In this document: piece after piece, positions 22,714 through 43,790 of the stretch
Position numbering within the stretch: the first letter of the stretch is position 1
How the letters are laid out: each line of letters opens with the position of its first letter
Assembly (NCBI GenBank): GCA_963844965.1
Contig: CAWJQC010000008.1
Span: 64,001 to 128,000 of the forward strand
DNA: 64,000 nt
Reading direction: 5' to 3'
Origin: an uncultured bacterium
Lineage (GTDB): Bacteria; Patescibacteriota; Minisyncoccia; UBA6257; 2-01-FULL-56-20
Notes under the pieces: model-generated
Seen by the model: the letters and a program-made list of their open reading frames with translations, nothing else
Database searches by the model: none
Told to the model about the DNA's origin: nothing
Made by a program: the position numbers and the translations under genes

Positions 22714-25700
22714 TTAAACCTTCCTCACCGCCAGCCAGATTTCTTTGTCTTCAAATTTCGTTGTTTCTTCCGCGTCAAATTTTTCGGATTTTTTATATTC
22801 TATTTCGCGCGCGCCGGTTTCTTTTTTCAGCAACTCCTCCTTCTTGCCCAAGACAAGACGGATTTCCGCAGGGAATACGGCCGACAAAATCATTTCGTCT
22901 TTGGGCTTCAGGCCCGCTCTCTGCCGCAGTTCCTGGACCATGCGCACCACCTCGCGCAAAATCCCCTCTTCGCGCAATTCCGGCGTGATCGCTGCGTCCA
23001 ACTCAATCTCGCCCTTCATCTTTGAGTCCACAACAACTTCCTTGACATTCACCTCTTCCGCCAAAACCGCAAGTAAATCTTTGTTTGTTTTTAATTTTTG
23101 ATTCTTAATTTTTAATTTTTGCAATGGCTGGCGGACCTTGATTCCCGCCTCCGCCCGCTTTGCAAGTCCCAAGCTCGCGAGCCGCCGCACCTCGGCCATA
23201 GCCTTCAACAATTTTGAATTTTCAATTTTCAATTTTGCACTGGCAGGCCAATCGTGCAGGTGCACGGAATTTTTATAACCGAAGCTTTCGTGTAAATATT
23301 CCGCAAAGAACGGCATGAACGGTGCGGTCAACTTGGTTGTTTCACGCAAAACAAATCCCAATGTCGCCGAAGCCACCTTGAAATCCGCCTGACTTTGGGG
23401 CTTTTGCAGTCGCCTCCGCGAACGTCTTATATACCAGCGCGACAGGTCATCAACGAATTTTTCTATCGAAAGCGCCGCCTCGCGAATTTCATATCTGTCA
23501 AGATTTTTCGTTACACTAGCGACGGTTTGGTTGAGGCGCACAAGGATCCAATTATCCAAAACGTTTTTACTCGCCGTCGGCAGCTTTCCAACTTTAGCCG
23601 CTGACTCCGCATACGTCCGATAGAATACGAATGAATTCCAAAGAAGGAGGTGGAAGCGGCGATATGCCTTAAGAATTTCTGCCTCGTCAAAACTTTTCGG
23701 CTCGCCCAGGGGGGTTACGGTATAAAAATACCAACGCACCGCATCGATTCCGTATTTCCGTATTACTTCCCAAGGATCAACCACATTACCCCTGGATTTA
23801 GCCATTTTCTGCCCGTTCTTGTCGTTTATAAGCCCGAGCGATACAACATTCTTATATGGCGATTCGTGCCCCAAGGCGGTCGCGATGGCAAGCAACGTGT
23901 AAAACCAGCCGCGCGTCTGGTCCATCCCTTCGGCGATGTAATCGGCTGGATAATCCAAACCACGAGGCACGTATCCCACAACACGACCAACTTTTGTGTT
24001 GCGTGTCACGTGCTTTGTGCTTTGTGCGAACGGATAGTGAGCCTGAGCGAACGGCATCGCCCCCGAGTCGTACCACACGTCGGCAACTTCCTTCACCCGT
24101 GAAATTCTCTTGCCGCATCTGGGGCATTTTATGGAAATCATGTCGGCGTAGGGGCGGTGCAGGTCAACCTCGCCGGTGTCGTTCCTCGGAATTATCTTCA
24201 GTTCCAATTTGTGGCACTCCGCAGGCGCGACGAAATCGCTTCCACGGCTCACTTTTTCCACGACCGCTTTCTTTTCGCTCCAGCCAAGCGCTACCTGGTT
24301 CAGCATCCAAACCGGATATTCGTGCGTTACTAAAAGTATGTTCCTGCCCTTGTACTTTTTTTCCAGGTCCCGCAGCAGATCCCAGAGGCGCACGCGGAGA
24401 TCACGCAACGATTCGCCCCCTTCCGGCCCTTTTTCAAATCTTTCCGCATGCGTAGGGAAAAGTTCCCTGTACCTACCTTCGGGCTGCCCCTCCAGTACAC
24501 CCATATTTATCTCATGGAGCCGCCTGTCAAAAATAATCTTCTCCACACCAAGCGTCCGCGCGACAATCCTTGCGGTTTCTTGCGTTCTCAGAATATCGGA
24601 GGCGATAACCAAATTCATTTTATTTCCGGTCTCCTCAAGCGCATCCTTAAGTTTTTTGGCCGATTCTTCAGCCTCACTCTTGCCTTGCGGCGTAAGGTGA
24701 TACTCGCCCCGACCGCTGTCTATCACGTGAGCAAGAAGCGTCTCGGAAAATCCGTGGCGCATCACCCAATAATTATTTTTCGGGCCGCCGGCCAACCGAT
24801 CCAGTTCATCCAAACCGCCCACGACTTCCACATTCCCGCAACTTTTGCATTCCCAGATCGGCAACGGCGTTCCCCAATAACGCTCGCGGGAAAGATTCCA
24901 GTCCTTAACTTCTCTCAGCCACTCGCCGAAGCGACCGTCTTTTAGATGCTCCGGAACCCAGTTGATTTTTTTATTGTTTGCGAGGAGTTTATCGCGCAAC
25001 TTGCCCATGGCGATGAACCAAGAACTGCGCGCGTAATAAAGCACCGGCGTTTCGCAGCGCCAGCAATAAGGATATTCGTGCGTGTAATTTTCTATTTTGA
25101 AAAGATTGCCGTTCTTGCGGAGATGTTCAAAAATTTTCTCGTCTGTTTCTTCGGTTTTGACTGGCAAGCCACCAAGTTCCGGCACGTCGCGCGTGAATTT
25201 TCCTTCCTCATCAACAGTGTGCTTCTGCGGCAAGCCCACCTTAACGCCCAACCGGTAATCGTCTTCGCCGTACATAACGGCGGTATGCACAACGCCAGTT
25301 CCCTCGTCGGTCGCCACGAAATCCGCGGCGTAAACTTTATACGCGGCGGGGGTGCGGAGCGGCTTTATTTCAAACAGCGGCTTATAGTTCAGGCCAACCA
25401 GATCTTTGCCGCTCAGAACCTCACGCACGTCGGACTCCGTCCCGAACGGATTACCCTCTTTTTTGATTATCTCCTCGGCGACAATCCAGCGCTCAATTTT
25501 GCCGCCAACCATTTTCTTCACCAAGGCGTAATTTATTTTCTCCCCGACCGCCAGTGCAACGTTTCCCGGCAACGTCCATGGCGTCGTCGTCCATGACAAA
25601 ATATAGGTATCTTCGTCCGTGTGAATATCCTCGCCGATTCTCTGTCCGCGCTTTAATCTGAATTTAAGATAAACCGACTGCTCCGTTGTTTCTTTGTAGC

Positions 25701-26277
25701 CCATGGCAAGTTCGTGCGAAGAAAGTGCCGTGCCACATCTCGAGCACCAAGGAACAACTTTGTGGCCCTTGTACAAAAGCCGGCGCTTCGCGATCTGCGC
25801 AATCGTCCACCACAACGTTTCAATATATTCCGGATCGTAGGTAACGTAAGCGTCTCTAAGGTCAAGCCAGTAACCGATGCGGCGCGTCATTTCTTCCCAC
25901 TCATCCTTATGAAGCCAAACCTGCTCCTTCGCTTTTTTATTGAAAGCCGCGATGCCGAATTTTTCTATGTCTTTTTTGGATTTCAAGCCGAGCGCTTTTT
26001 CGGTGGCCATCTCCACCGGCAAGCCGTGTGTGTCCCAGCCGGCGCGGCGCGGCACAAAATAGCCGCGCATGGATTTGTAGCGCAAAATGATGTCCTTAAC
26101 TATCCGCGCGAGAATATGATGAATTCCCGGCTTGCCGTTCGCATAAGGAGGGCCTTCGTAAAACACGAATTTCCGCTTGCCACGCCGCTCGGCAAGCGTC
26201 TTTTCAAAAACATGATTTTCTTCCCAAAATTTCAGGACTTTCTCTTCTATTTTCGGGAGGTTGAATTCTTCGGGCAT
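22714..26277 (-). CDS. ileS: Isoleucine--tRNA ligase (type 2) carrying a ~200-aa histidine-phosphatase-like insertion
   Basis: PYANGKPGIHHILARIVKDI (HIGH region), the CP1 editing domain and KMAKSRGN are present. The true start is MPEEFNLPK at 26277. An extra segment NNYWVMRHGFSE...ILLVTHEYPVWM is inserted between WGTPLPIW and DLHRPYADM. Confidence 0.9.
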   Translation of the reverse strand: MPEEFNLPKIEEKVLKFWEENHVFEKTLAERRGKRKFVFYEGPPYANGKPGIHHILARIVKDIILRYKSMRGYFVPRRAGWDTHGLPVEMATEKALGLKSKKDIEKFGIAAFNKKAKEQVWLHKDEWEEMTRRIGYWLDLRDAYVTYDPEYIETLWWTIAQIAKRRLLYKGHKVVPWCSRCGTALSSHELAMGYKETTEQSVYLKFRLKRGQRIGEDIHTDEDTYILSWTTTPWTLPGNVALAVGEKINYALVKKMVGGKIERWIVAEEIIKKEGNPFGTESDVREVLSGKDLVGLNYKPLFEIKPLRTPAAYKVYAADFVATDEGTGVVHTAVMYGEDDYRLGVKVGLPQKHTVDEEGKFTRDVPELGGLPVKTEETDEKIFEHLRKNGNLFKIENYTHEYPYCWRCETPVLYYARSSWFIAMGKLRDKLLANNKKINWVPEHLKDGRFGEWLREVKDWNLSRERYWGTPLPIWECKSCGNVEVVGGLDELDRLAGGPKNNYWVMRHGFSETLLAHVIDSGRGEYHLTPQGKSEAEESAKKLKDALEETGNKMNLVIASDILRTQETARIVARTLGVEKIIFDRRLHEINMGVLEGQPEGRYRELFPTHAERFEKGPEGGESLRDLRVRLWDLLRDLEKKYKGRNILLVTHEYPVWMLNQVALGWSEKKAVVEKVSRGSDFVAPAECHKLELKIIPRNDTGEVDLHRPYADMISIKCPRCGKRISRVKEVADVWYDSGAMPFAQAHYPFAQSTKHVTRNTKVGRVVGYVPRGLDYPADYIAEGMDQTRGWFYTLLAIATALGHESPYKNVVSLGLINDKNGQKMAKSRGNVVDPWEVIRKYGIDAVRWYFYTVTPLGEPKSFDEAEILKAYRRFHLLLWNSFVFYRTYAESAAKVGKLPTASKNVLDNWILVRLNQTVASVTKNLDRYEIREAALSIEKFVDDLSRWYIRRSRRRLQKPQSQADFKVASATLGFVLRETTKLTAPFMPFFAEYLHESFGYKNSVHLHDWPASAKLKIENSKLLKAMAEVRRLASLGLAKRAEAGIKVRQPLQKLKIKNQKLKTNKDLLAVLAEEVNVKEVVVDSKMKGEIELDAAITPELREEGILREVVRMVQELRQRAGLKPKDEMILSAVFPAEIRLVLGKKEELLKKETGAREIEYKKSEKFDAEETTKFEDKEIWLAVRKV
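24166..24777 (-). other. Histidine phosphatase (PGAM-like, RHG motif) domain inserted within ileS
   Basis: The RHG catalytic motif (VMRHGFSE) and the distal His (LLVTHEYP) are spaced as in histidine phosphatase superfamily branch 1. The segment is in frame inside the IleS catalytic core. Confidence 0.55.
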
Positions 26278-26452
26278 TAGATTAAAAATATCAAATTTTT
26301 GACACATTTCCAAGCGAAAAATCCGCCAAGCATTTCCACGTACCGGACGGGACGGTCGCAGAGACGACAACACACGATTGACGTCTTTGTGCATATTTGA
26401 TAGTCTGAACCACAGAAACGTTGACAAAAATCTACCGAGATGGAGGTGTTAT

Positions 26453-32720: not shown

Positions 32721-33960
32721 TCAATGTTTTAATGGGAATTTCCTGCAGAGTTTTTTCACCGCGCCGTTCACATTCCTGTTTTGCGCCAAAACTTCGTCTA
32801 TCAGCCGCGCGACCTCCTTCATCTCTTTTTCTTTCATGCCGCGTGTCGTGAGAGACGGCGTGCCGATTCTTATTCCCGACGGGTCAAAGGGCGGCCTGGT
32901 GTCGTAAGGCACCGTATTTCTGTTCACAATAATGCTATTCCGCTCCAGACGATCCTGCGCTTCGCGGCCGGAAATTCCGAAATTCGTGAGGTCAATAAGC
33001 ATCAGGTGATTTTCCGTACCGCCAGAGACAAGATTGAAACCACGATGGACGAGTTCACGGGCAAGAGTGCCGGCGTTTTTAACTATCTGCCTACCGTACT
33101 TTTTGAAGGACGGCTGCATAGCTTCGTAGAGGCACGCAGCGATGGCGGCGGTTTGGTTGTCGTGCGGTCCGCCCTGAAGCGCCGGGAACACCGCCCTGTC
33201 AATTTCCTTGCCGATGTCAATTTTCTTCTTAAGGGCAAGCGGCGATACTCTGATTGGCGAAAATCAGCGCGCCGCGCGGTCCGCGCAGGGTCTTGTGCGT
33301 AGTCGTGGTCACGACATCGGCGTAAGGAAACGGCGAGGGATGCGCACCAGCGGCGACGAGACCGGCAATGTGAGCCACGTCCACGAGAAGATAAGCGCCA
33401 ACCTCGCGGGCTATCTTCCCGAATTTTTTGAAATCAAACTTTCTTGTATAAGCGGTCGCGCCGGCAACGATAATCTGCGGACGCTCTTTGCGCGCCATTT
33501 TTCTCACTACTTCGTAATCAATGAAGCCGTTGCGGTCAACGGAATACTGCGCGGACTTGTAAAATCGCGCGGAAAAATTCACCTTCCAGCCGTGCGTCAA
33601 GTGACCGCCGAAGGGAAGCGACATTCCCATGATTTTTTCTCCCGGCCGGAGCAGGGCGTAATAGACAGCCATATTCGCCGGCGAACCGGAATACGGCTGA
33701 ACGTTCACATGCCAATTTTTACCAAGATGGAAAACTTTCCTTGCCCTCTCCTGCGCCAATAACTCAATCTCATCAATCACCGAATTGCCCGCGTAGTATC
33801 TCTTACCCGGGTAACCCTCGGAATATTTGTTGGTTAGCGCGGACCCCAGTGCCCCGAGCACTCCGGCCGAAACGATATTCTCCGAGGGAATCAAGTCCAG
33901 AGTGTCGTTCTGACGCCGCGTTTCTTTTTTGATTAAATTTTCCACAATCTTGTCGCGCAT
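32721..33960 (-). CDS. glyA: Serine hydroxymethyltransferase (apparent frameshift around 33200-33240)
   Basis: ORF 33229..33960 has LIPSENIVS...[13 protein letters not shown] 32721..33191 has [11 protein letters not shown] ... The halves are joined through a different frame ([16 protein letters not shown]). Confidence 0.9.
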
Positions 33961-35284: not shown

Positions 35285-35533
35285 TTAGCCGATAATACCC
35301 GCGCCGAAGATCGGCGCCTTGGGATTGCCCAGCCAGACCGCAAGCATGAAGACAGTGAGTAGGATGGCAATAAGCAGAAGCAGCAAGCTTGTGGTAGCGG
35401 AGCCTGTGGTAGTGGGTTCCGACTTCAAAATCGGCATCGGTGGTATACGAAAAGACAAGAAGGCAAAAATGAGGGAAGCCAACACTATGATCGCGATGCG
35501 CACCAAGATTGACGGGCAAAACAAATCCTCCAT
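35285..35533 (-). CDS. Hypothetical small membrane protein
   Basis: The 82-aa ORF has two hydrophobic helices. Confidence 0.3.
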   Translation of the reverse strand: MEDLFCPSILVRIAIIVLASLIFAFLSFRIPPMPILKSEPTTTGSATTSLLLLLIAILLTVFMLAVWLGNPKAPIFGAGIIG

Positions 35534-35600
35534 CGGTCACCTCGCCTACAGAATTCAACCACGGAACTAGTTTGACTATAAAGCGGTAAGTTGCGTCGTG

Positions 35601-36530
35601 TCAAATGCAACCGCCGAAAGTGAAGGCATACGCCCGCAGTCCACGGTCTTTCGCGAAAATTATGAGCTCGCCGCGCGGGGGAGCCGCCAACGGTCCGCCA
35701 CCGAAGTCCTTCGCGTTCGCGAGATTGTACATTTTAGTTTCACTTACCTCCAATTCCTTCAAAAGTTTTCCGTCAAGCTCCACGCGGACCTTTGCAGCGC
35801 GCTCGCCATCCGCTCCCATCACGAGATTAATTTCCATCGCTTCAAAATTGAGCGACAGATAATCAACGAATTCTTCGGTTTTCCTTTCGTACTCAATATA
35901 TTCCGGATAAACTTTCCAATCACCGGAGAAATTCCAGGTTTTTCCGGCGCGGCCGCGCATCGTACCGAGATAGGTTTCCGGCGTGGTTGGATAACAAACC
36001 CCGCCTTCGCCCTCCGTGGCCTTGACAACGGAGGGCAACTTCTCCCCCGGGTTAATTTCCGAAAGCGCCTTTCGGATTGCCTCTTCGGTCTCCGCATAAG
36101 CTCCCTCTCCGGCATGCTCGTATACTGCTTGGCCATCTTTATTTATCAAAAATTTATGCGGCCAGGAGTTATTGGAATATAAACTCCAAATTTGATAGTC
36201 GCTATCCATCACGACAGGATATTCAATTCCGAATTCCTTTATGGCCCTCGCGACGTTTTCAACATTCTTCTCAAATTCAAATTCTGGAGTATGCACGCCA
36301 ACGATCACGAGACCGAATTTTGCGTATTTATCGTGCCAGCTTCTTATGTGCGGCAGGGTACGGATGCAGTTCACGCAGGAATAGGTCCAAAAATCCACAA
36401 GCACGACATGCTTGCCGCGCAAATCTTTCATACTAAGGCGCTGTTCGCCGCCCAATCCCCCGCCGCTGGGCAAAAGGCCGGCGGGTAAGTTGAACCAGCG
36501 CAAATTTGGAGGAAACTCCGGTGAATGCAT
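35601..36530 (-). CDS. Thioredoxin-fold protein (CxxC, TlpA/redoxin-like) with C-terminal extension
   Basis: VVLVDFWTYSCVNCIRTLPHI is a CxxC redoxin motif. An uncharacterised domain of about 150 aa follows it. Confidence 0.55.
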   Translation of the reverse strand: MHSPEFPPNLRWFNLPAGLLPSGGGLGGEQRLSMKDLRGKHVVLVDFWTYSCVNCIRTLPHIRSWHDKYAKFGLVIVGVHTPEFEFEKNVENVARAIKEFGIEYPVVMDSDYQIWSLYSNNSWPHKFLINKDGQAVYEHAGEGAYAETEEAIRKALSEINPGEKLPSVVKATEGEGGVCYPTTPETYLGTMRGRAGKTWNFSGDWKVYPEYIEYERKTEEFVDYLSLNFEAMEINLVMGADGERAAKVRVELDGKLLKELEVSETKMYNLANAKDFGGGPLAAPPRGELIIFAKDRGLRAYAFTFGGCI

Positions 36531-36586
36531 TGTTTAAATATTAATTTGAACCGCGAAAAAAAACAAACACCCCTGCGCGCTACGCG

Positions 36587-37096
36587 TCAGGGGTGAAACT
36601 TCCTGATGATTCTCACCGAAAAGTCGGCCGCAAAAAATTCCTTGTCCCTCGGGCACTTTTTCCCATATGCCTCGGGGTTGGTTTGATAATCCACGATGTG
36701 GCCGACTTCATGGAACAAATCGCCCACCGTCGCGTCCTCCTGAAGGATAATCTCATTAGTGTCGGGCCAGCAGAACGATGTGCTTGATTCTTCAATGCCA
36801 ACGCGGTAGCAGAGATACAGGTACGGCCGTAAAAATGTCTTTCGCATGTCCTTCGGCAGAATATAAACGCGCGGGACATCCAGGTTGCCAAGGCCGGCGC
36901 GCGTCAAACCACCGTGAGCGATAAATTCCTTCGTGCTGTCGCGACGCAAGAGAAAACCCGGATTGGAAATAATGCTGAAGCCGACAGTGACGTAAAAAAA
37001 GGCAAAGATTATGCACGCGTAGACCGGACCGCGAAACAAATCGGGCAGCGGCTTGGCCAAAAAATCAAACCAGAGCCAGCGCAGGGATTTTTTCAT
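36587..37096 (-). CDS. Membrane-anchored putative zinc metallopeptidase (HExxH)
   Basis: The ORF has an N-terminal TM helix and a DLFHEVGHIVDY motif. Confidence 0.4.
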   Translation of the reverse strand: MKKSLRWLWFDFLAKPLPDLFRGPVYACIIFAFFYVTVGFSIISNPGFLLRRDSTKEFIAHGGLTRAGLGNLDVPRVYILPKDMRKTFLRPYLYLCYRVGIEESSTSFCWPDTNEIILQEDATVGDLFHEVGHIVDYQTNPEAYGKKCPRDKEFFAADFSVRIIRKFHP

Positions 37097-37270
37097 GAAC
37101 CACCTCGGTTTATATGTCCTCAGGATCCTATTCTTAGATTACCACTATTTGAAACAAAATCTACCGCACGGCTCCATGGTCCGTGCCTGTATATCACATG
37201 GCAGATACTGCGCAAAAATCAAAAATCTTGTACAATACAGGTCAGCAACTATAAAAACAAGGAGGTGTTT

Positions 37271-37601
37271 CGTGGCGGAGGAAAAAAATAATAAGCAGAA
37301 ACTCGCTGCTATCATCGCGTATGTAAGAAAACGGCGGAGGGAATCCAGAATAAAAATCGGCGTACCCCAGCCGCAAACCTCATGCTGGGGCGGTGGCATA
37401 GGAGAATTCGGCAATCTTGTTGAACTTAGTTTACCGTACAGACACGAAGAAGAATGGGATGAGCTCAAGGACCAGGAAACCCTTGACGGCGTACACCGGT
37501 ATGTTTCCTATAAACCGCCAAAAAAACCAGAAAAAATGAAGGGAGCCGCAATTAGCGGCCCTTTTTATTTTTTTTGGAGGTGCCTCACCCGAGGACGTTA
37601 G
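37271..37601 (+). CDS. Hypothetical protein (GTG start after AAGGAGGTG)
   Basis: About 110 aa. Its 3' end overlaps the repeated GGTGCCTCAC motif. Confidence 0.3.
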
Positions 37602-37672
37602 AACCTGTTTTACAGAAATGGCCAGCAAATTGTGAGTCCGGCAGGTTCGAATCCTGTAGGGGTGTCTGCTCC

Positions 37673-37701
37673 AGAACTGTGTTTGAGAGGAAAAACGATA
37701 C
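37673..37701 (+). promoter_or_regulatory. Promoter module TTGAGA-N17-TATATA with conserved spacer (copy 1)
   Basis: ttgagaggaaaaacgatacgacgtatatat. It is near-identical to a second copy at 38924-38953. The spacer contains the palindrome ATACGACGTAT. Confidence 0.5.
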
Positions 37702-37840
37702 GACGTATATATTCCGGGCCTAGGGCCAACCAACGAGTCGGCTGCCCGTCCTTGACGATTACCAGCTCCTTGTGCTTTCATCTAAATGGCTGGCGAGCCG
37801 CAAGCGAGCCAGACTACTTGACAAAGGAGGAAGTGGCCCA

Positions 37841-38134
37841 ATGAGAAACGGGAAACTTCTGCAAATTCCAGGTACTGAACTTTGGAACGGTTTGGAGGCT
37901 CTGCAGGTGGGGGGTGTCACGCCCAACCTGTGGCAGCGTCTCCGCTTAGATCTTTATTTTAGACGATATGCTGTCGAGATGATGGTCCAAGAGAACATAC
38001 GCCACCCCGGCCTTTCCGAAGCGGTGGAAGGTTTCCATTACGACACCCCTCGCTCCAAACTCGCTAACGGACTTCGGGAAAGGGGTTTCTATGTTGTGAA
38101 AGGTGAGATACGTAGAGGCCCTCGAGCCACATAG
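37841..38134 (+). CDS. Hypothetical protein
   Basis: The ORF starts at an ATG 10 nt after AAGGAGG. It has no recognisable motif and lies downstream of promoter module copy 1. Confidence 0.35.
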   Translation: MRNGKLLQIPGTELWNGLEALQVGGVTPNLWQRLRLDLYFRRYAVEMMVQENIRHPGLSEAVEGFHYDTPRSKLANGLRERGFYVVKGEIRRGPRAT

Positions 38135-38471
38135 CACGTGGCCAGTACACGCAATGGACATCGTTTTCTACCCAATACAGCCATTCCGCGCTCTTAATCA
38201 GGAAGAGGCCAGAGCTGAGCTCGACGAACGCAAGGTCCGTCCTGCTTACACCGAGGAATTTCTGCGTTTTTGCATGACCAAGCTTGCATTGGATACCACC
38301 TGTAGCCGACAAATCGGCGGGGTGGTAGCTCTGAATGCCTACCGAGATGATTGCGGAGTTCGCGAATATCTTTGTCTGGATCGCCGCCTTGACGGCAATC
38401 CGGCATTGGGTTTCTGGCACCCCGAGCCGACTTTCCCTGGGACGTGGGCGTTTCTGGGAGTCAGGCCATAG
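38103..38471 (+). CDS. Hypothetical protein (possibly the continuation of 37841..38134 through a frameshift)
   Basis: It overlaps the preceding ORF by 32 nt in a different frame. It starts at GTG. Confidence 0.3.
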   Translation: MRYVEALEPHSTWPVHAMDIVFYPIQPFRALNQEEARAELDERKVRPAYTEEFLRFCMTKLALDTTCSRQIGGVVALNAYRDDCGVREYLCLDRRLDGNPALGFWHPEPTFPGTWAFLGVRP

Positions 38472-38677
38472 GTTCAATCTTGCAGATCGAGCAACTGCTC
38501 GTCGCCACGACAAAAAAATCGTGGCGCTTTTTTACGAAAAACACCAGGGTGCCTCACTAAAGGACGTCAGAACCAGAATAATCGGGGCGTTACTGAAAAA
38601 TCGGTATATTTACATACCGGATTTAACTTTGCCAATAACTGCGAGGTAAAGGAATCTATCAGATTTGATAAGCTTCT

Positions 38678-38866
38678 TTACTTTCCGGCCTTGTCTAAAA
38701 TCTTTGAACCTATGTTTATTGAACCGACCAAGACAACACCCGCCAGAATTGCATAAATAAGAGAAAATCCTATCGTATCAATCAAGTATAACGAGAACAT
38801 AAAAGAAATGCAGACGATTATAATAGCCGGAATCCAAATCAACAAGTAGCCGAGGAGTTTTTTCAT
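38678..38866 (-). CDS. Small 2-TM membrane protein
   Basis: MKKLLGYLLIWIPAIIIVCISFMFSLYLIDTIGFSLIYAILAGVVLVGSINIG. Confidence 0.4.
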   Translation of the reverse strand: MKKLLGYLLIWIPAIIIVCISFMFSLYLIDTIGFSLIYAILAGVVLVGSINIGSKILDKAGK

Positions 38867-38923
38867 AGATTTATTTTACCTTATTTTACCCCACCCCACC
38901 ACTCACCGTATCTCCAGGCATAT

Positions 38924-38953
38924 TTGAGCGGAAAAACGATATGACGATATATA
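38924..38953 (+). promoter_or_regulatory. Promoter module TTGAGC-N18-TATATA (copy 2)
   Basis: ttgagcggaaaaacgatatgacgatatatat. It lies about 145 nt upstream of the secreted-protein gene at 39096. Confidence 0.5.
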
Positions 38954-39095
38954 TTCCGGATGTAAAATCGCAAAATATTCCAGGCCATAGGCAGTATCGA
39001 CAATTTTTCTCATCTGTTATATAAGGGATATAGGCCCGCCAGCAAGTATGCGGCGGATGAGGCAGTTTACATCATAAAACAAGGAGGCGAACGCA

Positions 39096-39500
39096 ATGCG
39101 ACGATTTGGATTTCTGGCACTCTTTTTGGGAATGACCATTCTGGGGACGTCTGCGCTGGCGGGATCCGCCAAAGACGGCGAATATGTTCTTGAAAAAAAT
39201 CAAATACAACCCATGGGTGAAGATAAGAGCTGCGGTCCATATTTTATCCTGACCACATATGGCGGGCGTTCTGCGGAGAGGATTGTCTTTCATTTCGTTG
39301 ACGATGATGGAAAGATTCAGGCCGACGCAATCAAGATTTCGATGGTTTCGGTCGTCGGCGACAAAGACAAAAAAGTCCCAACCGTTCAGTTCGAAAAAAA
39401 CGAGGACGAGAGGACAATGATTTTGCGAATTAGCCCGGAGGACAGGCAAGAGGCAACCTGCCTTAAAGCCAAGAGCGACGATACCAAAGGAGGCCGCTGA
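39096..39500 (+). CDS. Secreted hypothetical protein with signal peptide
   Basis: A strong RBS (aaggagg) precedes MRRFGFLALFLGMTILGTSALAGSAKDG. Confidence 0.5.
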   Translation: MRRFGFLALFLGMTILGTSALAGSAKDGEYVLEKNQIQPMGEDKSCGPYFILTTYGGRSAERIVFHFVDDDGKIQADAIKISMVSVVGDKDKKVPTVQFEKNEDERTMILRISPEDRQEATCLKAKSDDTKGGR

Positions 39501-39649
39501 ATCTAAACGGCCCCTTTTTCTTTTCTCGACGCCCTAAAAATATCAACATTTTTCGCCGGGTGCCTCACTTGAGGATGTTATTGTTTCGAAAAGAAAAAAC
39601 CGCCTCGGAAAACCAAGACGGTCGATGCACGTTTCCAGTACATTGGCTT

Positions 39650-39680
39650 GAGTGAACGGACGGCGAGGGGTATAATGAAG
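39650..39680 (+). promoter_or_regulatory. Promoter TTGAGT-N17-TATAAT
   Basis: ttgagtgaacggacggcgaggggtataat. A 33-codon basic mini-ORF at 39700..39801 follows it. Confidence 0.45.
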
Positions 39681-39948
39681 TTACTAAAGAAGAAATAGCA
39701 TGGCTCATCGCGGAGGCAAGAGAACGAAAAATAAGAGGAACCGAAAAGCACGGCGAAAGTTTAATAGTCGGGTTATTTTCCCGTCAGAAAGAAGGAGATG
39801 ATATCGTGGGCAGTCCGGTCGCGCCGACATGGTAGCCGTATCTGTCCCTCGATAATAAAAATACTTGGGGTGCCTTGTTGGATGTGTTTAGAACCGTGAA
39901 TTGGAATGAATTACGGGAAGGTATGGCGAATTTAAGCTTTGTGGGCGG

Positions 39949-40365
39949 TTAATAAACCCAGATTCCAATAGCAAGCAGGATAATCCGCACGAGCATAAAG
40001 GCAATTAAGTGGAGCATATAAAATATACCCTTTTCGAACATATCAATGCCCCAAATTTTGAAACAGATAAGAATGACGGCGGAGTGGACGATAAGGTAAG
40101 AGAAACTGCCAATTATCCGGTTGACAGATGGAGGAAGGCCGTTGGATTGGCGCATCCTTCCGAAAGTCATTGCGGTAAAAACGACAGAAACCAACACGAG
40201 GAAGATACCGATTACGATCGTTGGGATGAGGGGTGAAATAAACGATTGCCACAATTGCACGAAAGGCGCATCAAGGGCGTTAAATATCGGCTGGAGCATT
40301 TGGGTCGCCGAGGCGACAGCGCTGGAGGAATACACTGGGAAGATAACCGGCGGTGTAGATGTCAT
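39949..40365 (-). CDS. Hypothetical membrane protein
   Basis: The 138-aa ORF has 3 predicted TM helices. Confidence 0.4.
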   Translation of the reverse strand: MTSTPPVIFPVYSSSAVASATQMLQPIFNALDAPFVQLWQSFISPLIPTIVIGIFLVLVSVVFTAMTFGRMRQSNGLPPSVNRIIGSFSYLIVHSAVILICFKIWGIDMFEKGIFYMLHLIAFMLVRIILLAIGIWVY

Positions 40366-40431
40366 CCCAGCAACATACAGCAGTTATGGCGGGCTGGTCA
40401 ATTGGTGGCCGCGGGTTATATAATATCTTTA

Positions 40432-41667
40432 ATGAAAATCGAGAGCCAAAAACTCAACGTAACCGAGGCGTTTAAAAACTTCTATTACATCGTCCCGCCG
40501 TATCAGCGGGAGTATGTTTGGAAGGAGAGAAACGTTGCCCAGTTATTTAACGATATTTACGACGAATATACCAACGATAAAAACTCCGAATACTTTATCG
40601 GCAGTATCGTCGTAAATAAGCGTGAGGATGGCACATACGAAGTGATCGACGGCCAACAGCGATTAACCACTTTATTTATTAGTCTTTGTGCGCTTAAACG
40701 TGTGTTCAAAAATTCCCAAGATCATTTAAGCGTTATAGAAAATCTGCTCACTTCCCCGACGACGAACGATAAAGGCGAAATCATCCGCAGCTCCCATCTT
40801 GAACTGCAATATGAAGGCACAGCAGACATTTTACGCGATATTTTGAATGACAAGGAATTAAGCAAAAAAACGTCTGGTTCGGCAGAACACATCAAAGAAG
40901 CCCTCGAAACCATCCTCGAATACCTGAACGCAAACTTCAAAACAGAAAATGACCGAACGCGGTTTTATGGATATTTTATGCACAAGGTAAATTTTGTGCA
41001 GATTGAAACGCCGAGCGTGAGCGACGCTTTGAAAATTTTTGAAACGATCAATGAGCGCGGCGTTGGCCTGAATCCGATGGATTTGCTCAAAAATTTGATA
41101 TTTCAGCAATTGCCACGCGACGAGTTTCAAAAGGTTAATGTCGAATGGAAGAAAATAACGAGGACGTTGGAAAAGAATGGGCAGAAGCCACTCCGCTTTT
41201 TACGCTACTTCATAATGGCCAACTATCAGGTCAAGGATACTAAAGACGTCGAGGTTGTGCGTGAGGACGAGATTTACGACTGGGTGGTAAGACACGCCGA
41301 GGTTTGCGGCTATAGGAAAGATCCATTCGGGTTTGTGGGAAAAATCGCCACAGATGCCGAAGCCTACGTTTCATTTTTCAACGGTATGACGCTGGAGGGC
41401 AAGAATAGCGTCGAATTGGAAAACATCAGGAGCTTGGGCGGCGGTGCATTCAGCCAACATTTAGTTATGCTGCTTGCGGCCAAAGAGTTGCCCGAAGACC
41501 TTTTTCTTCATCTCGTTCGACAGGTGGAAAGCTTATCTTTTACTACTTCATTACGAAAACTCCCGCGAAAGCACTGGAAGCCCGTTTTTCCCGATGGGCG
41601 GATGATTTGCGTGATGTAGCGGGCGATGCAGATCAAAAAGCCGCCCTCAATAAATTCATAATGTAAA
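40432..41667 (+). CDS. DUF262 (ParB/Srx-fold, GmrSD N-terminal type) domain protein; apparent frameshift near 41550
   Basis: VPPYQREYVWKERNVAQLFNDIYDEY ... IDGQQRLTTLFISL are DUF262 hallmarks. The C-terminus continues in another frame (...KTPAKALEARFSRWADDLRDVAGDADQKAALNKFIM*). No DUF1524/HNH partner domain is present. Confidence 0.6.
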
Positions 41668-41718
41668 GGATAGGTTTCTTTAGACAGTGATTCGACGGCT
41701 TTTTGCCGTTTTTTTTCG

Positions 41719-42501
41719 TTAAGCCGCAATCTTCTCGGCAAACACGGACGGCGGCATCTTGAGGGCGGAGTGGATCCGCGTGTGGTTGTACTGCCACAAG
41801 GTGCTGTAGATCTCCGCCACGAGCTCGCCGAAGGTCCCGAACCGGTTGGGATCACCGAGGTCAATCTTGAACTTGTCATAGAACGATTCCTGGTAGCCGT
41901 TTTCCCATGGGGCACCGGGCCGCGACCGCGAGATCGTGATGCCACAGTCCCCCAGTGTATCGGTGAACGCTCGTGCCTTGTACTCGCTGCCGTTGTCCGA
42001 ATGGAAGATGACCGGATGCGGATGGTGGAAAAGCGCGTTGGCCAGGGTCTGTATCGTGAGGGGCGATCCTTTCCGCAACGCCACATGGACGCCCATCAAT
42101 CGTCTCGTGAAAAGATCGAGTATCGTGGACACGTACACTTTCTTGCCGCGATACAGGAACTCCGTGAAATCGGTTGCCCAGACGTGGTTCGCGTACGAGG
42201 GCATGATGGCAAGTAAGAGGTTCGGAAAGGCCCGCGATGCCTTTGATTTCCGGTATTTCCTGCCTCGCCTCCGGTACGGCCTTATGCCGAAGATTCGCAT
42301 GACGCGCTGCGCTCGCGGACGGCTCACGCCCAGAGCTTGTCCCAAGCGCCGGGAACCGTATGCCGGATGGCGCTGCAATTCTTCTTCCATGCGGATCTTG
42401 AGCGCCCAATCTTTCTTGTCCTGCCGTGATACGTAGTAGAGCGATGCCCGCGAGACGCCCATGGCCCGCGCCATGGCGGACTTGTTCCGCTTTTCCGTCA
42501 A
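41719..42501 (-). CDS. IS3-family transposase OrfB (DDE integrase core)
   Basis: HSDNGSEYKARAFTDTL ... PGAPWENGYQESFYDKFK. Confidence 0.85.
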   Translation of the reverse strand: MTEKRNKSAMARAMGVSRASLYYVSRQDKKDWALKIRMEEELQRHPAYGSRRLGQALGVSRPRAQRVMRIFGIRPYRRRGRKYRKSKASRAFPNLLLAIMPSYANHVWATDFTEFLYRGKKVYVSTILDLFTRRLMGVHVALRKGSPLTIQTLANALFHHPHPVIFHSDNGSEYKARAFTDTLGDCGITISRSRPGAPWENGYQESFYDKFKIDLGDPNRFGTFGELVAEIYSTLWQYNHTRIHSALKMPPSVFAEKIAA

Positions 42502-42761
42502 TTCTTTTTTTGGGCCTGGGAGAGCTTCACGGTGAGCTCGCCCACCACTTCAAACAGCTCCCTGTTCTGCTTCTGGAGACGGCTGAACTCGCCCCAGGAA
42601 GGGACGCCCGATGCTCCTGCGCCTAGCCAATTGTAGATGGTGGACTCGTGCAAACCGTGGTCCTTCGCAGCCTGCGCTACGGGGACTCCTTCTTCCTTCA
42701 CCCGGCGGAGGATGTCCGCCTTCACTTCCTTCGCAATCCGATGCCCTTTTTTGTTGCTCAT
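42498..42761 (-). CDS. IS3-family transposase OrfA (HTH)
   Basis: HTH and leucine zipper (ELTVKLSQAQKKN). The ORF ends at the AAAAAAG frameshift window. Confidence 0.8.
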   Translation of the reverse strand: MSNKKGHRIAKEVKADILRRVKEEGVPVAQAAKDHGLHESTIYNWLGAGASGVPSWGEFSRLQKQNRELFEVVGELTVKLSQAQKKN

Positions 42762-42903
42762 GACACAATGGTAGTTTGTTTCGACCTTTGTGTCTAAATT
42801 ATCCTATCCGGGTCAGTTGAACTCAAAACAGTTTGCCATCAATGCGGATTATTGTTATAAACAAGGCAGCATGACGCCACCCAAAGCGAAACAAGGAGAG
42901 GGA

Positions 42904-43611
42904 ATGAATTTGAAGCTCGGCTTTTCTACCGGCTGTTTACATAGGGCACAATTGCATATTCGTGAGAAGCTGGCCATCATTCAAAAAATGGGCTGTCGCG
43001 CCGTGGAGCTCGGATATGTCAGACTGAAGGATTTCAATTCCGGCGAGCTTGAAACGATAACGACCGAGAATCTCCACGATTTTGATCATGTCAGCTTACA
43101 CGCACCAAAGTTCGATTATGGCAACAACGATGGAACTATCGGGATATTCGAACGAATACGAAAACTGAACAGGGTAAGAAAATTGGACCTGGTTGTTTTT
43201 CACCCCGACACCATCGTCGATCTAGACGTTTTTACGAGAGCCGATTTCAATGTGGCTCTTGAGAACACGGACAACAGAAAAGAATTTTGTCGGCGCCCAG
43301 AAGAGTTAGAACGATTACTTGCTGGCAACAACTTCGGATTTGTCCTCGATGTAAACCATGTATACAGCAATGATGCCTCGATGAGGATGGCTGCCGAGTT
43401 TTATAAAAAGCTTGGCGGTAGGATTTCCGAGGTTCATCTGAGTGGTTATCGTGGTTACCACGAGCCGCTTTTTGAAACGAAGCAAGTCGAAATTGTACAG
43501 TCAATAATAGATTTCGGCGTGCCGATAATCGTGGAGGGAGAACTGACCCCGGAAAATATCCAAAGTGAACAAGAATATATTCTGGGCATCATCGGCGGGC
43601 TTGAACAATAG
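42904..43611 (+). CDS. TIM-barrel protein, xylose isomerase-like/sugar phosphate isomerase-epimerase family (putative)
   Basis: The RBS aaggagaggg precedes MNLKLGFSTGCLH...AVELGY...LHAP... The family assignment is tentative. Confidence 0.4.
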   Translation: MNLKLGFSTGCLHRAQLHIREKLAIIQKMGCRAVELGYVRLKDFNSGELETITTENLHDFDHVSLHAPKFDYGNNDGTIGIFERIRKLNRVRKLDLVVFHPDTIVDLDVFTRADFNVALENTDNRKEFCRRPEELERLLAGNNFGFVLDVNHVYSNDASMRMAAEFYKKLGGRISEVHLSGYRGYHEPLFETKQVEIVQSIIDFGVPIIVEGELTPENIQSEQEYILGIIGGLEQ

Positions 43612-43790
43612 GTCCGCTTTTTGTTTTTCCCACTTCTGACAAATGAACTTTGTGTACGTCGTGTACGTCCTACGGGACCGGGGTAATTGCCCCGTTCAGC
43701 AGTCCTGGCAGTTTTTGCAAGTATTCCCCGAGTCCCAATAATGTCCACTATTTCCACCAAAAATAAAACGTCCCATTATAACGGGACGTT

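What the first reader, a model, noticed from the sequence alone, without database searches (positions are those of the whole stretch)
40432..43611. Stand-alone DUF262 (GmrSD-N-type) gene flanked by an IS3 element: possible defence-island fragment
The 410-aa protein has clear DUF262 motifs (PPYQREYVW, IDGQQRLTT) but no DUF1524/HNH domain. This is the arrangement seen when GmrSD-like type IV restriction or other DUF262-containing defence systems lose or separate their nuclease partner. An IS3-family element is inserted 1 bp after its stop codon. The neighbourhood is accessory, with small ORFs, promoters and a TIM-barrel gene of uncertain family. The partner nuclease may be missing, relocated or novel.
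Basis: partly seen in the sequence, partly recalled or inferred. Interest (0 to 1): 0.5.

Follow-up and report, generated by a model that had tools for sequence, protein, structure and literature searches.

The report
IS-truncated GmrSD restriction gene remnant
The "stand-alone DUF262" gene is the front two-thirds of an ordinary one-protein GmrSD-type anti-phage restriction enzyme: a mobile IS3 element cut off its nuclease domain, so it is a dead defence gene and not a new system.

Summary
The DUF262 motifs are real (Pfam GmrSD_N, E=2e-42), and an intact IS3-family element lies beside the gene. Every close relative (72-86% identical) is about 592 aa and carries DUF262 plus DUF1524 (the HNH-type nuclease) in one polypeptide. 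The window copy aligns with them only to codon 410. There the conserved IS terminus TGTAAAGGATAGG begins at 41662 and itself supplies the TAA stop. The last 182 codons, which include the EHILP nuclease motif, are absent from the window and from the protein database. The "410-aa protein" also needs a 1-nt repair after codon 368, because the deposited ORF is 395 aa. An independent assembly shows the same frameshift and the same gene/IS junction. The downstream TIM-barrel gene belongs to a separate family of solitary genes, mostly in Patescibacteria, with an endonuclease-IV-like metal-site pattern. None of 29 distinct relative loci carries a DUF262 gene, and none of three distinct GmrSD contexts carries the TIM gene, so it is not a partner nuclease. 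The flanking genes are housekeeping or orphan genes. The only other PADLOC hit nearby is the TIM gene's match to the unvalidated candidate PDC-M70B. Verdict: an IS-inactivated pseudogene of a known family (PADLOC Orf5 / HEC-06, GmrSD-like). Low interest.

The parts
40395..40424 (+). Sigma-70-like promoter match (TGGTCA-18-TATAAT) ending 7 nt before the gene's ATG. No Shine-Dalgarno sequence is visible, so the transcript may be leaderless.
   Evidence: Consensus scan, (10 of 12 matches). This is a pattern match only, not evidence of function.
40432..41661 (+). 5' remnant (codons 1-410 of about 592) of a single-polypeptide GmrSD-family gene. It keeps the DUF262 NTPase domain (DGQQR at aa 73) and most of the helical linker. 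It lacks the DUF1524/HNH nuclease domain.
   Evidence: Pfam PF03235, E=2.3e-42. PADLOC Orf5 PDLC02688, E=1.5e-71, covering model positions 3-397 of 554; HEC-06 covering 4-400 of 562. The 86%-identical 592-aa relative P0002 covers the same models end to end. DNA homology to three relatives ends at 41661.
41533..41535 (+). One-nucleotide deletion (frameshift) after codon 368. As deposited, the reading frame ends at TAG 41617-41619.
   Evidence: Alignment with L001, L007 and L009: 'GAAAGCTT-ATCTTT' in the window against 'GAAAGTTTGATTTT' in relatives. The same frameshift appears in the deposited protein P0001 and in the independent Logan contig L134 / P0334. Caveat: this assembly has other apparent indel errors.
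41662..42815 (-). Complete 1154-bp IS3-family insertion sequence. It has imperfect terminal inverted repeats of about 25 bp (TGTAAAGGATAGGTTTCTTTAGACA / TGACCCGGATAGGATAATTTAGACA). Its left terminus supplies the TAA stop (41663-41665) of the repaired reading frame.
   Evidence: Inverted repeat I1. Fourteen or more metagenome contigs align over positions 1-1154 at 70-79% identity, with conserved termini and unrelated flanks. Only one copy is present in the window.
42498..42761 (-). IS orfA (87 aa, HTH). It ends in an A AAA AAG -1 frameshift site at about 42504-42511.
   Evidence: Pfam HTH_Tnp_1, E=4e-9. Slippery heptamer read from the sequence.
41719..42501 (-). IS orfB (260 aa, DDE/rve integrase core).
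   Evidence: Pfam rve, E=1.4e-20. NCBIfam NF033516 IS3 family transposase, 189.8 bits against a cutoff of 160.
42904..43611 (+). Unrelated neighbour: a 235-aa xylose-isomerase-like TIM-barrel protein with an endonuclease-IV-like set of invariant His/Glu/Asp residues. It has a strong RBS (GGAGAGGG) and a terminator-like hairpin at 43594-43618. The ORF that looks open from 42790 merely reads out of the IS end.
   Evidence: PADLOC PDC-M70B, E=2e-32. Pfam AP_endonuc_2, E=5.8e-6, below the gathering score. 93 homologues; the named ones are mostly Patescibacteria. Invariant H66, H100, E120, D149, H178, H186, E211. Profile hit to endonuclease IV 5zhz, E=0.036. AF2 model pLDDT 97. Foldseek TM 0.6-0.7 to sugar epimerases, Endo IV and MbnB.

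Best explanation
The region 40432-41661 is the inactivated remnant of a single-gene, single-polypeptide GmrSD-family type IV restriction / antiphage nuclease. The intact protein has three parts: a DUF262 NTPase domain, a helical linker and a DUF1524 His-Me (HNH-type) nuclease domain. It falls in the subgroup that PADLOC models as 'Orf5' / HEC-06.

How intact relatives work (taken from the family, not shown here): the DGQQR NTPase domain controls a C-terminal HNH-type nuclease that cuts invading phage DNA, which is modified DNA in the classical GmrSD and BrxU cases.

What happened here (shown): a 1154-bp IS3-family element sits at codon 410 of about 592. Its terminal TGTAA provides a stop codon, and the 182 C-terminal codons carrying the EHILP nuclease motif are gone. 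A 1-nt deletion after codon 368 additionally breaks the frame.

Because the DNA to the right of the IS is not the rest of the gene, there was more than a simple insertion (inferred). The possibilities are an IS-adjacent deletion, recombination between two IS copies, or a mis-join at the repeat.

The product, at most a 367-410-aa NTPase-plus-linker fragment, cannot cleave DNA. The locus is best read as a decaying defence pseudogene. The TIM-barrel gene that now lies 88 bp beyond the IS is an unrelated gene, solitary in its relatives, brought next to the remnant by that event.
For: 1. The best full-length hits are about 586-613 aa and carry PF03235 + PF07510. The closest full-length relative, P0002 (86% identity), aligns over residues 1-410 and then continues TRSF... 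for 182 more residues, with EHILP at 477.
2. PADLOC models are covered only to about position 400 of about 555 by the window protein, but end to end by P0002.
3. Nucleotide homology to L001, L007 and L009 ends at ...TTCATA|A, immediately before TGTAAAGG.
4. The IS termini are defined by 14 or more related copies with unrelated flanks. The IS is an intact IS3 family member.
5. No DUF1524-type sequence exists anywhere in the 64-kb window by tblastn or HMM. No fragment more than 73% identical to the missing C-terminus is in the 5.8-billion-cluster protein database.
6. An independent assembly (Logan contig, run ERR10755942, L134) is 99.94% identical over 35316-41691. It shares the frameshift and ends 30 nt inside the IS.
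7. Mutation of the HNH motif (E471A, H472A) or of DGQQR abolished defence in HEC-06 (bioRxiv 10.1101/2024.01.29.577857). Loss of the whole domain should therefore be inactivating.
8. Full-length relatives sit as single genes in variable defence or mobile contexts: a type IIG RM enzyme, Fic and a resolvase in L001; Eco57I, T5orf172-ResIII and DpnI in L007/L008.
Against: - The frameshift could be a sequencing artefact. The same assembly splits the SHMT gene by a frameshift and differs from L134 by indels at three sites.
- The right-hand junction (IS | TIM gene) could not be checked in an independent assembly. A mis-join at the repeat is therefore not excluded, and the 3' part might exist elsewhere in the 156-kb contig or in the genome. 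Only 64 kb are visible, and the genome is not in the genome collection.
- The absence of a target-site duplication is uninformative, because no related IS copy shows one.
- No expression or activity data exist. A residual role for the NTPase fragment cannot be ruled out from sequence.
Confidence: 0.88

Rival explanations
1. The DUF262 gene is a functional stand-alone NTPase/sensor. Its nuclease partner is encoded separately, and the adjacent endonuclease-IV-like TIM-barrel protein is the candidate. Together they would form a novel two-gene defence system, possibly equivalent to PADLOC candidate PDC-M70.
For: The TIM-barrel protein matches PADLOC PDC-M70B over its full length (E=2e-32). It has an Endo-IV-like set of invariant metal ligands. 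It lies directly downstream on the same strand.
Against: - The two genes are separated by an IS that cuts the DUF262 gene mid-protein.
- None of the 31 retrieved TIM-barrel loci (392 kb; 29 distinct, since L005/L012 and L003/L004 are duplicates) contains a GmrSD HMM hit or a DGQQR motif.
- None of the five retrieved GmrSD loci (three distinct contexts) contains the TIM gene.
- TIM relatives sit among housekeeping genes such as ClpB, DsbA/VKOR and FtsEX/RF2.
- No neighbour tested matches any PDC-M70 component.
- PDC-M70 is an unvalidated candidate. No paper mentions it.
Confidence: 0.03
2. The gene is interrupted by a simple IS insertion, or only in part of the population. The apparent loss of the 3' part is an assembly artefact: the assembler joined the left flank of one IS copy to the right flank of another. 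The DUF1524-encoding part would then survive next to another IS end elsewhere in the genome, or an intact allele would coexist in the population.
For: The IS belongs to a group that is abundant in environmental metagenomes (97 matching stretches). The independent Logan contig breaks 30 nt inside the IS, as expected at a repeat. The assembly shows other errors. The right junction is unverified.
Against: Only one IS copy is present in the 64-kb window. No close C-terminal fragment (>73% identity) was called on any contig in the protein database. A 156-kb contig with indel-type errors suggests long reads, which would span a 1.15-kb IS (inference). Even under this reading the gene is still disrupted at codon 410.
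Confidence: 0.08
3. The truncated protein is a conserved housekeeping ParB-like protein.
For: The DUF262 fold is related to ParB/sulfiredoxin NTPases (family knowledge).
Against: All close relatives listed are two-domain DUF262-DUF1524 proteins, apart from a few shorter entries that carry PF03235 only. They sit in variable, mobile, defence-rich contexts and share no neighbours with the window. The best PADLOC hits are GmrSD-like defence models.
Confidence: 0.01

Closest known systems
HEC-06 / PADLOC 'Orf5' group of GmrSD-like single-protein defences (Payne et al., bioRxiv 10.1101/2024.01.29.577857)
   Same: These are the best-scoring models: Orf5 PDLC02688 at E=1.5e-71 and HEC-06 PDLC04155 at E=4.3e-57. 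The DGQQR motif is conserved at aa 73. The full-length relative P0002 covers these models end to end and has an EHILP motif where HEC-06 has EHICP.
   Different: The window copy stops at about model position 400 of about 555. It lacks the whole DUF1524 domain and has a frameshift. In HEC-06, mutating the nuclease motif abolished defence. I could not establish which system PADLOC's name 'Orf5' refers to.
EcoCT GmrSD / BrxU / SspE (classical DUF262-DUF1524 type IV restriction enzymes)
   Same: Same two-domain architecture in the intact relatives (PF03235 + PF07510). Weak hits to SspE, mREase_IV and HEC-05 (=BrxU) models through the DUF262 domain. By sequence, P0002 matches the PDB entries 9jfl (a DUF262 protein, E=2.9e-10) and SspE 6jiv (E=0.0015).
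   Different: Only distantly related, with similarity confined to about the first 100 aa of DUF262 for SspE and BrxU. Substrate specificity is unknown. The window copy is truncated.
IS3-family insertion sequences
   Same: The orfA (HTH) / orfB (DDE rve) arrangement, an A AAA AAG -1 frameshift site, TG...CA termini, and an NF033516 score above cutoff.
   Different: It is short for the family at 1154 bp. No target-site duplication is detectable in the window or in 11 related copies. IS3 members usually make duplications of 3-5 bp (family knowledge).
Endonuclease IV (Nfo) / xylose-isomerase-like TIM barrels (for the neighbouring gene only)
   Same: TIM-barrel fold, with TM about 0.69 to T. thermophilus Endo IV 3aam. 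In the profile alignment to M. tuberculosis Endo IV, invariant HAP, HP, EN, D..H, H.S, H and E motifs line up with the Endo IV metal-ligand motifs. The residue roles come from family knowledge.
   Different: Statistical support is weak: E=0.036 by sequence, and Pfam and NCBIfam hits fall below their cutoffs. Sugar epimerases and MbnB score equally well by fold. It is about 50 aa shorter than Endo IV. Function is untested.

Membership tests
GmrSD family (DUF262-DUF1524 type IV restriction / HEC-06-like) | N-terminal DUF262 (PF03235) domain with the DGQQR NTPase motif | tested here: met
   PF03235, E=2.3e-42, aa 14-224. DGQQR at aa 73.
GmrSD family (DUF262-DUF1524 type IV restriction / HEC-06-like) | C-terminal DUF1524 (PF07510) His-Me/HNH nuclease domain with the (D/E)H motif | tested here: not met
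   No PF07510 hit. PADLOC models are covered only to about position 400 of 555. The EHILP motif at 477 of P0002 has no counterpart, and none exists in the window. Relatives have the domain. The window sequence is therefore a remnant by descent, not a functional member.
GmrSD family (DUF262-DUF1524 type IV restriction / HEC-06-like) | Orthology to full-length members over the shared part (descent from the family) | tested here: met
   86% amino-acid and 80% nucleotide identity to the 592-aa P0002 over codons 1-410.
GmrSD family (DUF262-DUF1524 type IV restriction / HEC-06-like) | Restriction of (modified) phage DNA / antiphage activity | not testable with these tools
   Needs plaque assays. Loss is predicted from the HEC-06 nuclease-motif mutants.
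IS3 family insertion sequence | DDE (rve) transposase matching the IS3 equivalog model above cutoff | tested here: met
   NF033516, 189.8 bits against a cutoff of 160 for OrfB. rve, E=1.4e-20.
IS3 family insertion sequence | Two overlapping ORFs joined by a -1 programmed frameshift (A AAA AAG) | tested here: met
   orfA ends ...CAA AAA AAG AAT TGA. The -1 frame reads KKELTEKRNK, which is the orfB N-terminus (sequence, ORFs). Frameshifting itself was not tested.
IS3 family insertion sequence | Terminal inverted repeats ending 5'-TG...CA-3' | tested here: met
IS3 family insertion sequence | 3-5 bp target-site duplication | tested here: not met
   No duplication at any offset in the window copy or in 11 related copies.
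Endonuclease IV / AP_endonuc_2 (neighbouring TIM-barrel gene) | Match to the family model above the curated threshold | tested here: not met
   PF01261, 26.6 bits against a gathering score of 31.1. NF002198, 18.9 bits against 244. Some homologues do carry a precomputed PF01261 hit.
Endonuclease IV / AP_endonuc_2 (neighbouring TIM-barrel gene) | TIM-barrel fold with conserved metal-binding His/Asp/Glu | tested here: met
   AF2 model pLDDT 97. Foldseek hits to the superfamily. Invariant H66, H100, E120, D149, H178, H186, E211.
PADLOC candidate PDC-M70 (two-gene candidate) | Presence of both the A and B components | tested here: inconclusive
   The B component matches (E=2e-32). No A-component match appears among the listed hits for the tested neighbours. 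Eleven weaker PADLOC hits of the DUF262 protein were not listed. The identity of PDC-M70A is unknown to me, and no paper mentions it.

The most novel reading that the evidence does not exclude
The NTPase-plus-linker fragment left by the IS might still be expressed from its own promoter. It could keep a biological role, for example as a nuclease-free sensor/NTPase or as a dominant-negative regulator. Alternatively it could cooperate with the adjacent Endo-IV-like TIM-barrel protein, so that the IS event created a new split defence module. A separate possibility is that the TIM-barrel family is an unrecognised minimal AP-endonuclease or defence-associated nuclease of Patescibacteria and DPANN.
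Probability: 0.03. Interest if true: 0.55.

Novelty: new member of a known kind. Interest (0 to 1): 0.12.

Why it matters
This is mainly a correction. A gene that looked like a nuclease-less DUF262 system is an IS-truncated copy of a well-known single-protein restriction family, so no missing or novel partner needs to be sought. It is one more case of a defence gene knocked out by a mobile element, here probably in a small-genome Patescibacteria-type organism (inferred from the TIM-barrel relatives). It also illustrates two annotation traps: an IS terminus that supplies an in-frame stop codon, and assembly indels that mimic or mask pseudogenes.

Tried and rejected
1. Search for the missing DUF1524 part.
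- tblastn of the P0002 C-terminus against the window gave only noise.
- An HMM of 111 full-length relatives against six-frame ORFs found only the two frames of the known gene.
- A protein-database search with the C-terminal 182 aa found no fragment above 73% identity and none from the 156-kb contig.

2. Search for other IS copies or the pre-insertion locus.
- The exact IS-end pattern in genome contigs gave 0 hits, so this genome is not in that collection.
- A right-flank 26-mer in metagenome contigs gave 0 hits.
- The degenerate inverted-repeat pattern found 97 stretches. These defined the IS ends, but none carried the window's flanks.

3. Target-site duplication as evidence for or against a deletion. 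I rejected this test because related copies show no duplication either.

4. Independent check of the IS|TIM junction. Exact-protein look-ups of P0121, the 235-aa TIM protein, the bPH protein and L20 all returned nothing, and the look-ups are now exhausted.

5. TIM barrel as a partner or as part of a defence pair.
- Co-occurrence tests were negative.
- A UDG neighbour was seen in only one genome.
- PADLOC scans of TIM neighbours in other genomes gave nothing relevant.
- 'PDC-M70' appears in no paper, and the meaning of PADLOC 'Orf5' was not resolved.

6. Shared synteny between the window and GmrSD relatives. There is none beyond the gene itself.

7. Rfam and tRNA scans found nothing in or near the region.

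8. Pfam and PADLOC scans of the small ORFs at 37-40 kb gave no hits.
Full report
**What is at the coordinates.**
The interval 40432-43611 holds three separate things.
- A + strand ORF starts at ATG 40432 and carries the quoted motifs, PPYQREYVW at aa 22 and DGQQR at aa 73.
- A two-ORF transposase unit lies on the - strand: orfA at 42498-42761 and orfB at 41719-42501.
- A + strand TIM-barrel ORF has its real start at ATG 42904, preceded by GGAGAGGG. The ORF listed from 42790 simply reads out of the IS end.

Pfam gives GmrSD_N (PF03235) at E=2.3e-42 for aa 14-224 of the first protein and nothing for DUF1524. It gives rve and HTH_Tnp_1 for the transposase ORFs, and a sub-threshold AP_endonuc_2 hit for the TIM barrel. 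NCBIfam places orfB in the IS3 family above its cutoff (189.8 against 160 bits).

**The gene is truncated, not stand-alone.**
A database search with the repaired protein returned more than 5000 hits. The best full-length hits are about 586-613 aa and carry both PF03235 and PF07510.
- The nearest full-length relative is P0002 (86% identity, 592 aa). Its sequence reads ...DQKATLNEFI-TRSFVAEKK... and continues for 182 more residues, with the His-Me/HNH motif EHILP at 477. The window protein reads ...DQKAALNKFI-M-stop.
- A codon-level DNA alignment with three relatives shows homology up to ...TTCATA|A. It then breaks off into TGTAAAGGATAGG....
- PADLOC tells the same story. The window protein covers positions 3-397 of 554 of its best model (Orf5 PDLC02688, E=1.5e-71) and 4-400 of 562 of HEC-06. 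P0002 covers the same models end to end.

**The IS boundary.**
A degenerate search with the terminal inverted repeat found 97 stretches in public metagenomes. At least 14 contigs align with the window element over exactly positions 1-1154 (41662-42815) at 70-79% identity. Their termini, TGTAAAGGATAGG...CCTATCCGGGTCA, are conserved while the flanks are unrelated.

The IS therefore begins at 41662. The TAA at 41663-41665 that ends the "410-aa protein" is IS sequence.

The element looks intact. It has orfA and orfB, a canonical A AAA AAG -1 slippery site at the overlap, and TG...CA ends. Neither this copy nor 11 related copies show a target-site duplication at any offset. The lack of one here therefore says nothing about a deletion.

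**The frameshift.**
The 410-aa reading needs a 1-nt repair after codon 368 (GAAAGCTT-ATC against GAAAGTTTGATT in relatives). The deposited protein (P0001, 395 aa) is the unrepaired ORF.

A second, independent assembly exists: a Logan contig of run ERR10755942 (L134). It is 99.94% identical over 35316-41691, has the same frameshift and ends 30 nt inside the IS. This supports both the frameshift and the left junction.

There is a caveat. The window assembly differs from L134 by indels at three sites, and it splits the normally essential SHMT gene by a frameshift near 33230-33260. Indel errors evidently occur in this assembly. I treat the GmrSD frameshift as probable, not certain. The truncation does not depend on it.

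**Where is the rest of the gene?**
It is not directly after the IS. Only 88 bp separate the IS end from the TIM-barrel start, and that DNA has no similarity to relatives.
- It is not elsewhere in the window by tblastn or HMM.
- It is not among called proteins. The best match to the missing 182 aa is 73% identical and sits on an unrelated 1.7-kb contig.
- The genome is not in the genome collection.
- I could not retrieve an independent contig across the right junction.

The most likely history is an insertion followed by an IS-adjacent deletion, or recombination between two IS copies. A mis-join at the repeat remains possible; I give it about 8%.

**Is the TIM-barrel gene the missing partner?**
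No. Its family has 93 database homologues, and 26 genome loci were retrieved. The named members are mainly Patescibacteria: Paceibacteria, Yanofskybacteria, Tagabacteria, Saccharibacteria and Woesebacteria. A few are DPANN archaea, and Sorangium has distant relatives.
- In the loci inspected it sits alone among housekeeping genes: ClpB; DsbA/VKOR; FtsEX, RF2 and, in one genome, a UDG.
- None of the 31 retrieved TIM loci (392 kb; 29 distinct, since L005/L012 and L003/L004 are duplicates) has a GmrSD HMM hit or a DGQQR motif. None of the five retrieved GmrSD loci (three distinct contexts, since L007/L008 and L009/L010 overlap) has the TIM gene.

The protein itself is a confident TIM barrel (pLDDT 97) of the xylose-isomerase-like superfamily. 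By fold, sugar epimerases, Endo IV, MbnB and UVDE all score TM 0.6-0.7.

Its invariant H66, H100, E120, D149, H178, H186 and E211, with the nearly invariant H152, line up in a weak profile match (E=0.036) with the metal-ligand motifs of endonuclease IV. That reading is suggestive and not established.

It also matches the PADLOC candidate model PDC-M70B (E=2e-32). That candidate is unvalidated and appears in no paper I could search. No A-component match was listed for any neighbour tested.

**Context.**
- Full-length GmrSD relatives are single genes embedded in variable defence or mobile neighbourhoods. L001 has Fic, a type IIG RM enzyme and a serine recombinase. L007/L008 have Eco57I, T5orf172-ResIII, DpnI and DUF3800. 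L009 has a recombinase. They share no neighbours with the window. This fits a horizontally mobile single-gene defence and rules out a housekeeping ParB.
- In the window, the left side has about 3.3 kb of orphan small genes and then AhpC-like, dCMP deaminase, SHMT, FolD, ArgRS and IleRS genes. The right side has the TIM gene, a bPH membrane protein, a GalT-like gene, infC-rpmI-rplT, a NUDIX-like ORF (assigned by eye, not scanned) and PolX.
- No neighbour scanned has a PADLOC hit apart from the TIM gene's PDC-M70B match. "Defence island" overstates the case. This is a lone, broken defence gene.

**Mechanism and comparison.**
For HEC-06, a validated GmrSD-like defence that matches this protein at E=4e-57, mutating DGQQR (Q79A, R80A) or the HNH motif (E471A, H472A) abolished phage resistance (bioRxiv 10.1101/2024.01.29.577857). 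By inference, the ancestor here was an NTP-dependent HNH-type nuclease acting on phage DNA. The remnant keeps the NTPase domain and linker, lacks the catalytic nuclease, and should be inactive. A promoter-like site lies just upstream, so a truncated product may still be made. Nothing suggests that such a product has a function.

**Verdict.**
The feature is an IS3-truncated, probably also frameshifted, pseudogene of a known single-polypeptide GmrSD-like restriction family. Its unrelated TIM-barrel neighbour is not a partner. Interest is low at 0.12.

Noticed in passing
window 42904-43611; relatives in L002-L006 and L011-L036: A compact (~235 aa) TIM-barrel family, found mostly in Patescibacteria and DPANN. 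It has an invariant His/Glu/Asp set resembling the endonuclease IV metal centre (H66, H100, E120, D149, H178, H186, E211) and a full-length match to the PADLOC candidate PDC-M70B. It always occurs as a solitary gene in changing neighbourhoods. In Sorangium the domain lies in a ~495-aa open frame that extends upstream. It might be a minimal AP endonuclease.
   Followed up: partly
window 33229-33960 and 32721-33260 (- strand): The serine hydroxymethyltransferase (SHMT/glyA) gene is split by a frameshift shortly after the PLP-lysine motif [11 protein letters not shown]. Because this gene is normally essential, the split suggests indel errors in the assembly rather than a pseudogene.
   Followed up: partly
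window 37586-37588, 38110, 38421 (compared with L134): The independent Logan contig L134 differs from the window only by indels and one substitution at these sites. With L134's version a single 239-aa ORF (L134 2525-3244) replaces several short overlapping ORFs in the window. That protein and its 120-aa neighbour have no Pfam or PADLOC match.
   Followed up: partly
window 37100-40400: About 3.3 kb upstream of the GmrSD remnant contains only short orphan ORFs: a 62-aa transmembrane protein, a 134-aa secreted-looking protein and a 138-aa membrane protein. None has a Pfam or PADLOC hit (the 62-aa ORF was scanned with Pfam only). Rfam and tRNA scans found nothing here. This could be the rest of a degraded island.
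   Followed up: partly
window 41662-42815; L043, L059, L066, L074, L077, L079, L081, L082, L084, L093, L106, L114, L119: The 1154-bp IS3-family element belongs to a group that is widespread in groundwater, peat and soil metagenomes, with near-identical 25-bp termini at 70-79% overall identity. None of the 11 flanked copies examined shows a target-site duplication, which is unusual for IS3-family elements.
   Followed up: partly
window 22714-26427 (- strand): The isoleucyl-tRNA synthetase ORF (1237 aa) has a histidine-phosphatase (His_Phos_1) domain inserted at aa 554-719, between the halves of its catalytic domain. This is an unusual fusion or insertion.
   Followed up: no
L001 12428-16454; L007 3946-11652: The closest full-length GmrSD relatives lie in compact defence islands. 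L001 has a type IIG RM enzyme with an S subunit next to a serine recombinase. L007 has Eco57I-like, T5orf172-ResIII, DUF3800 and DpnI genes.
   Followed up: no
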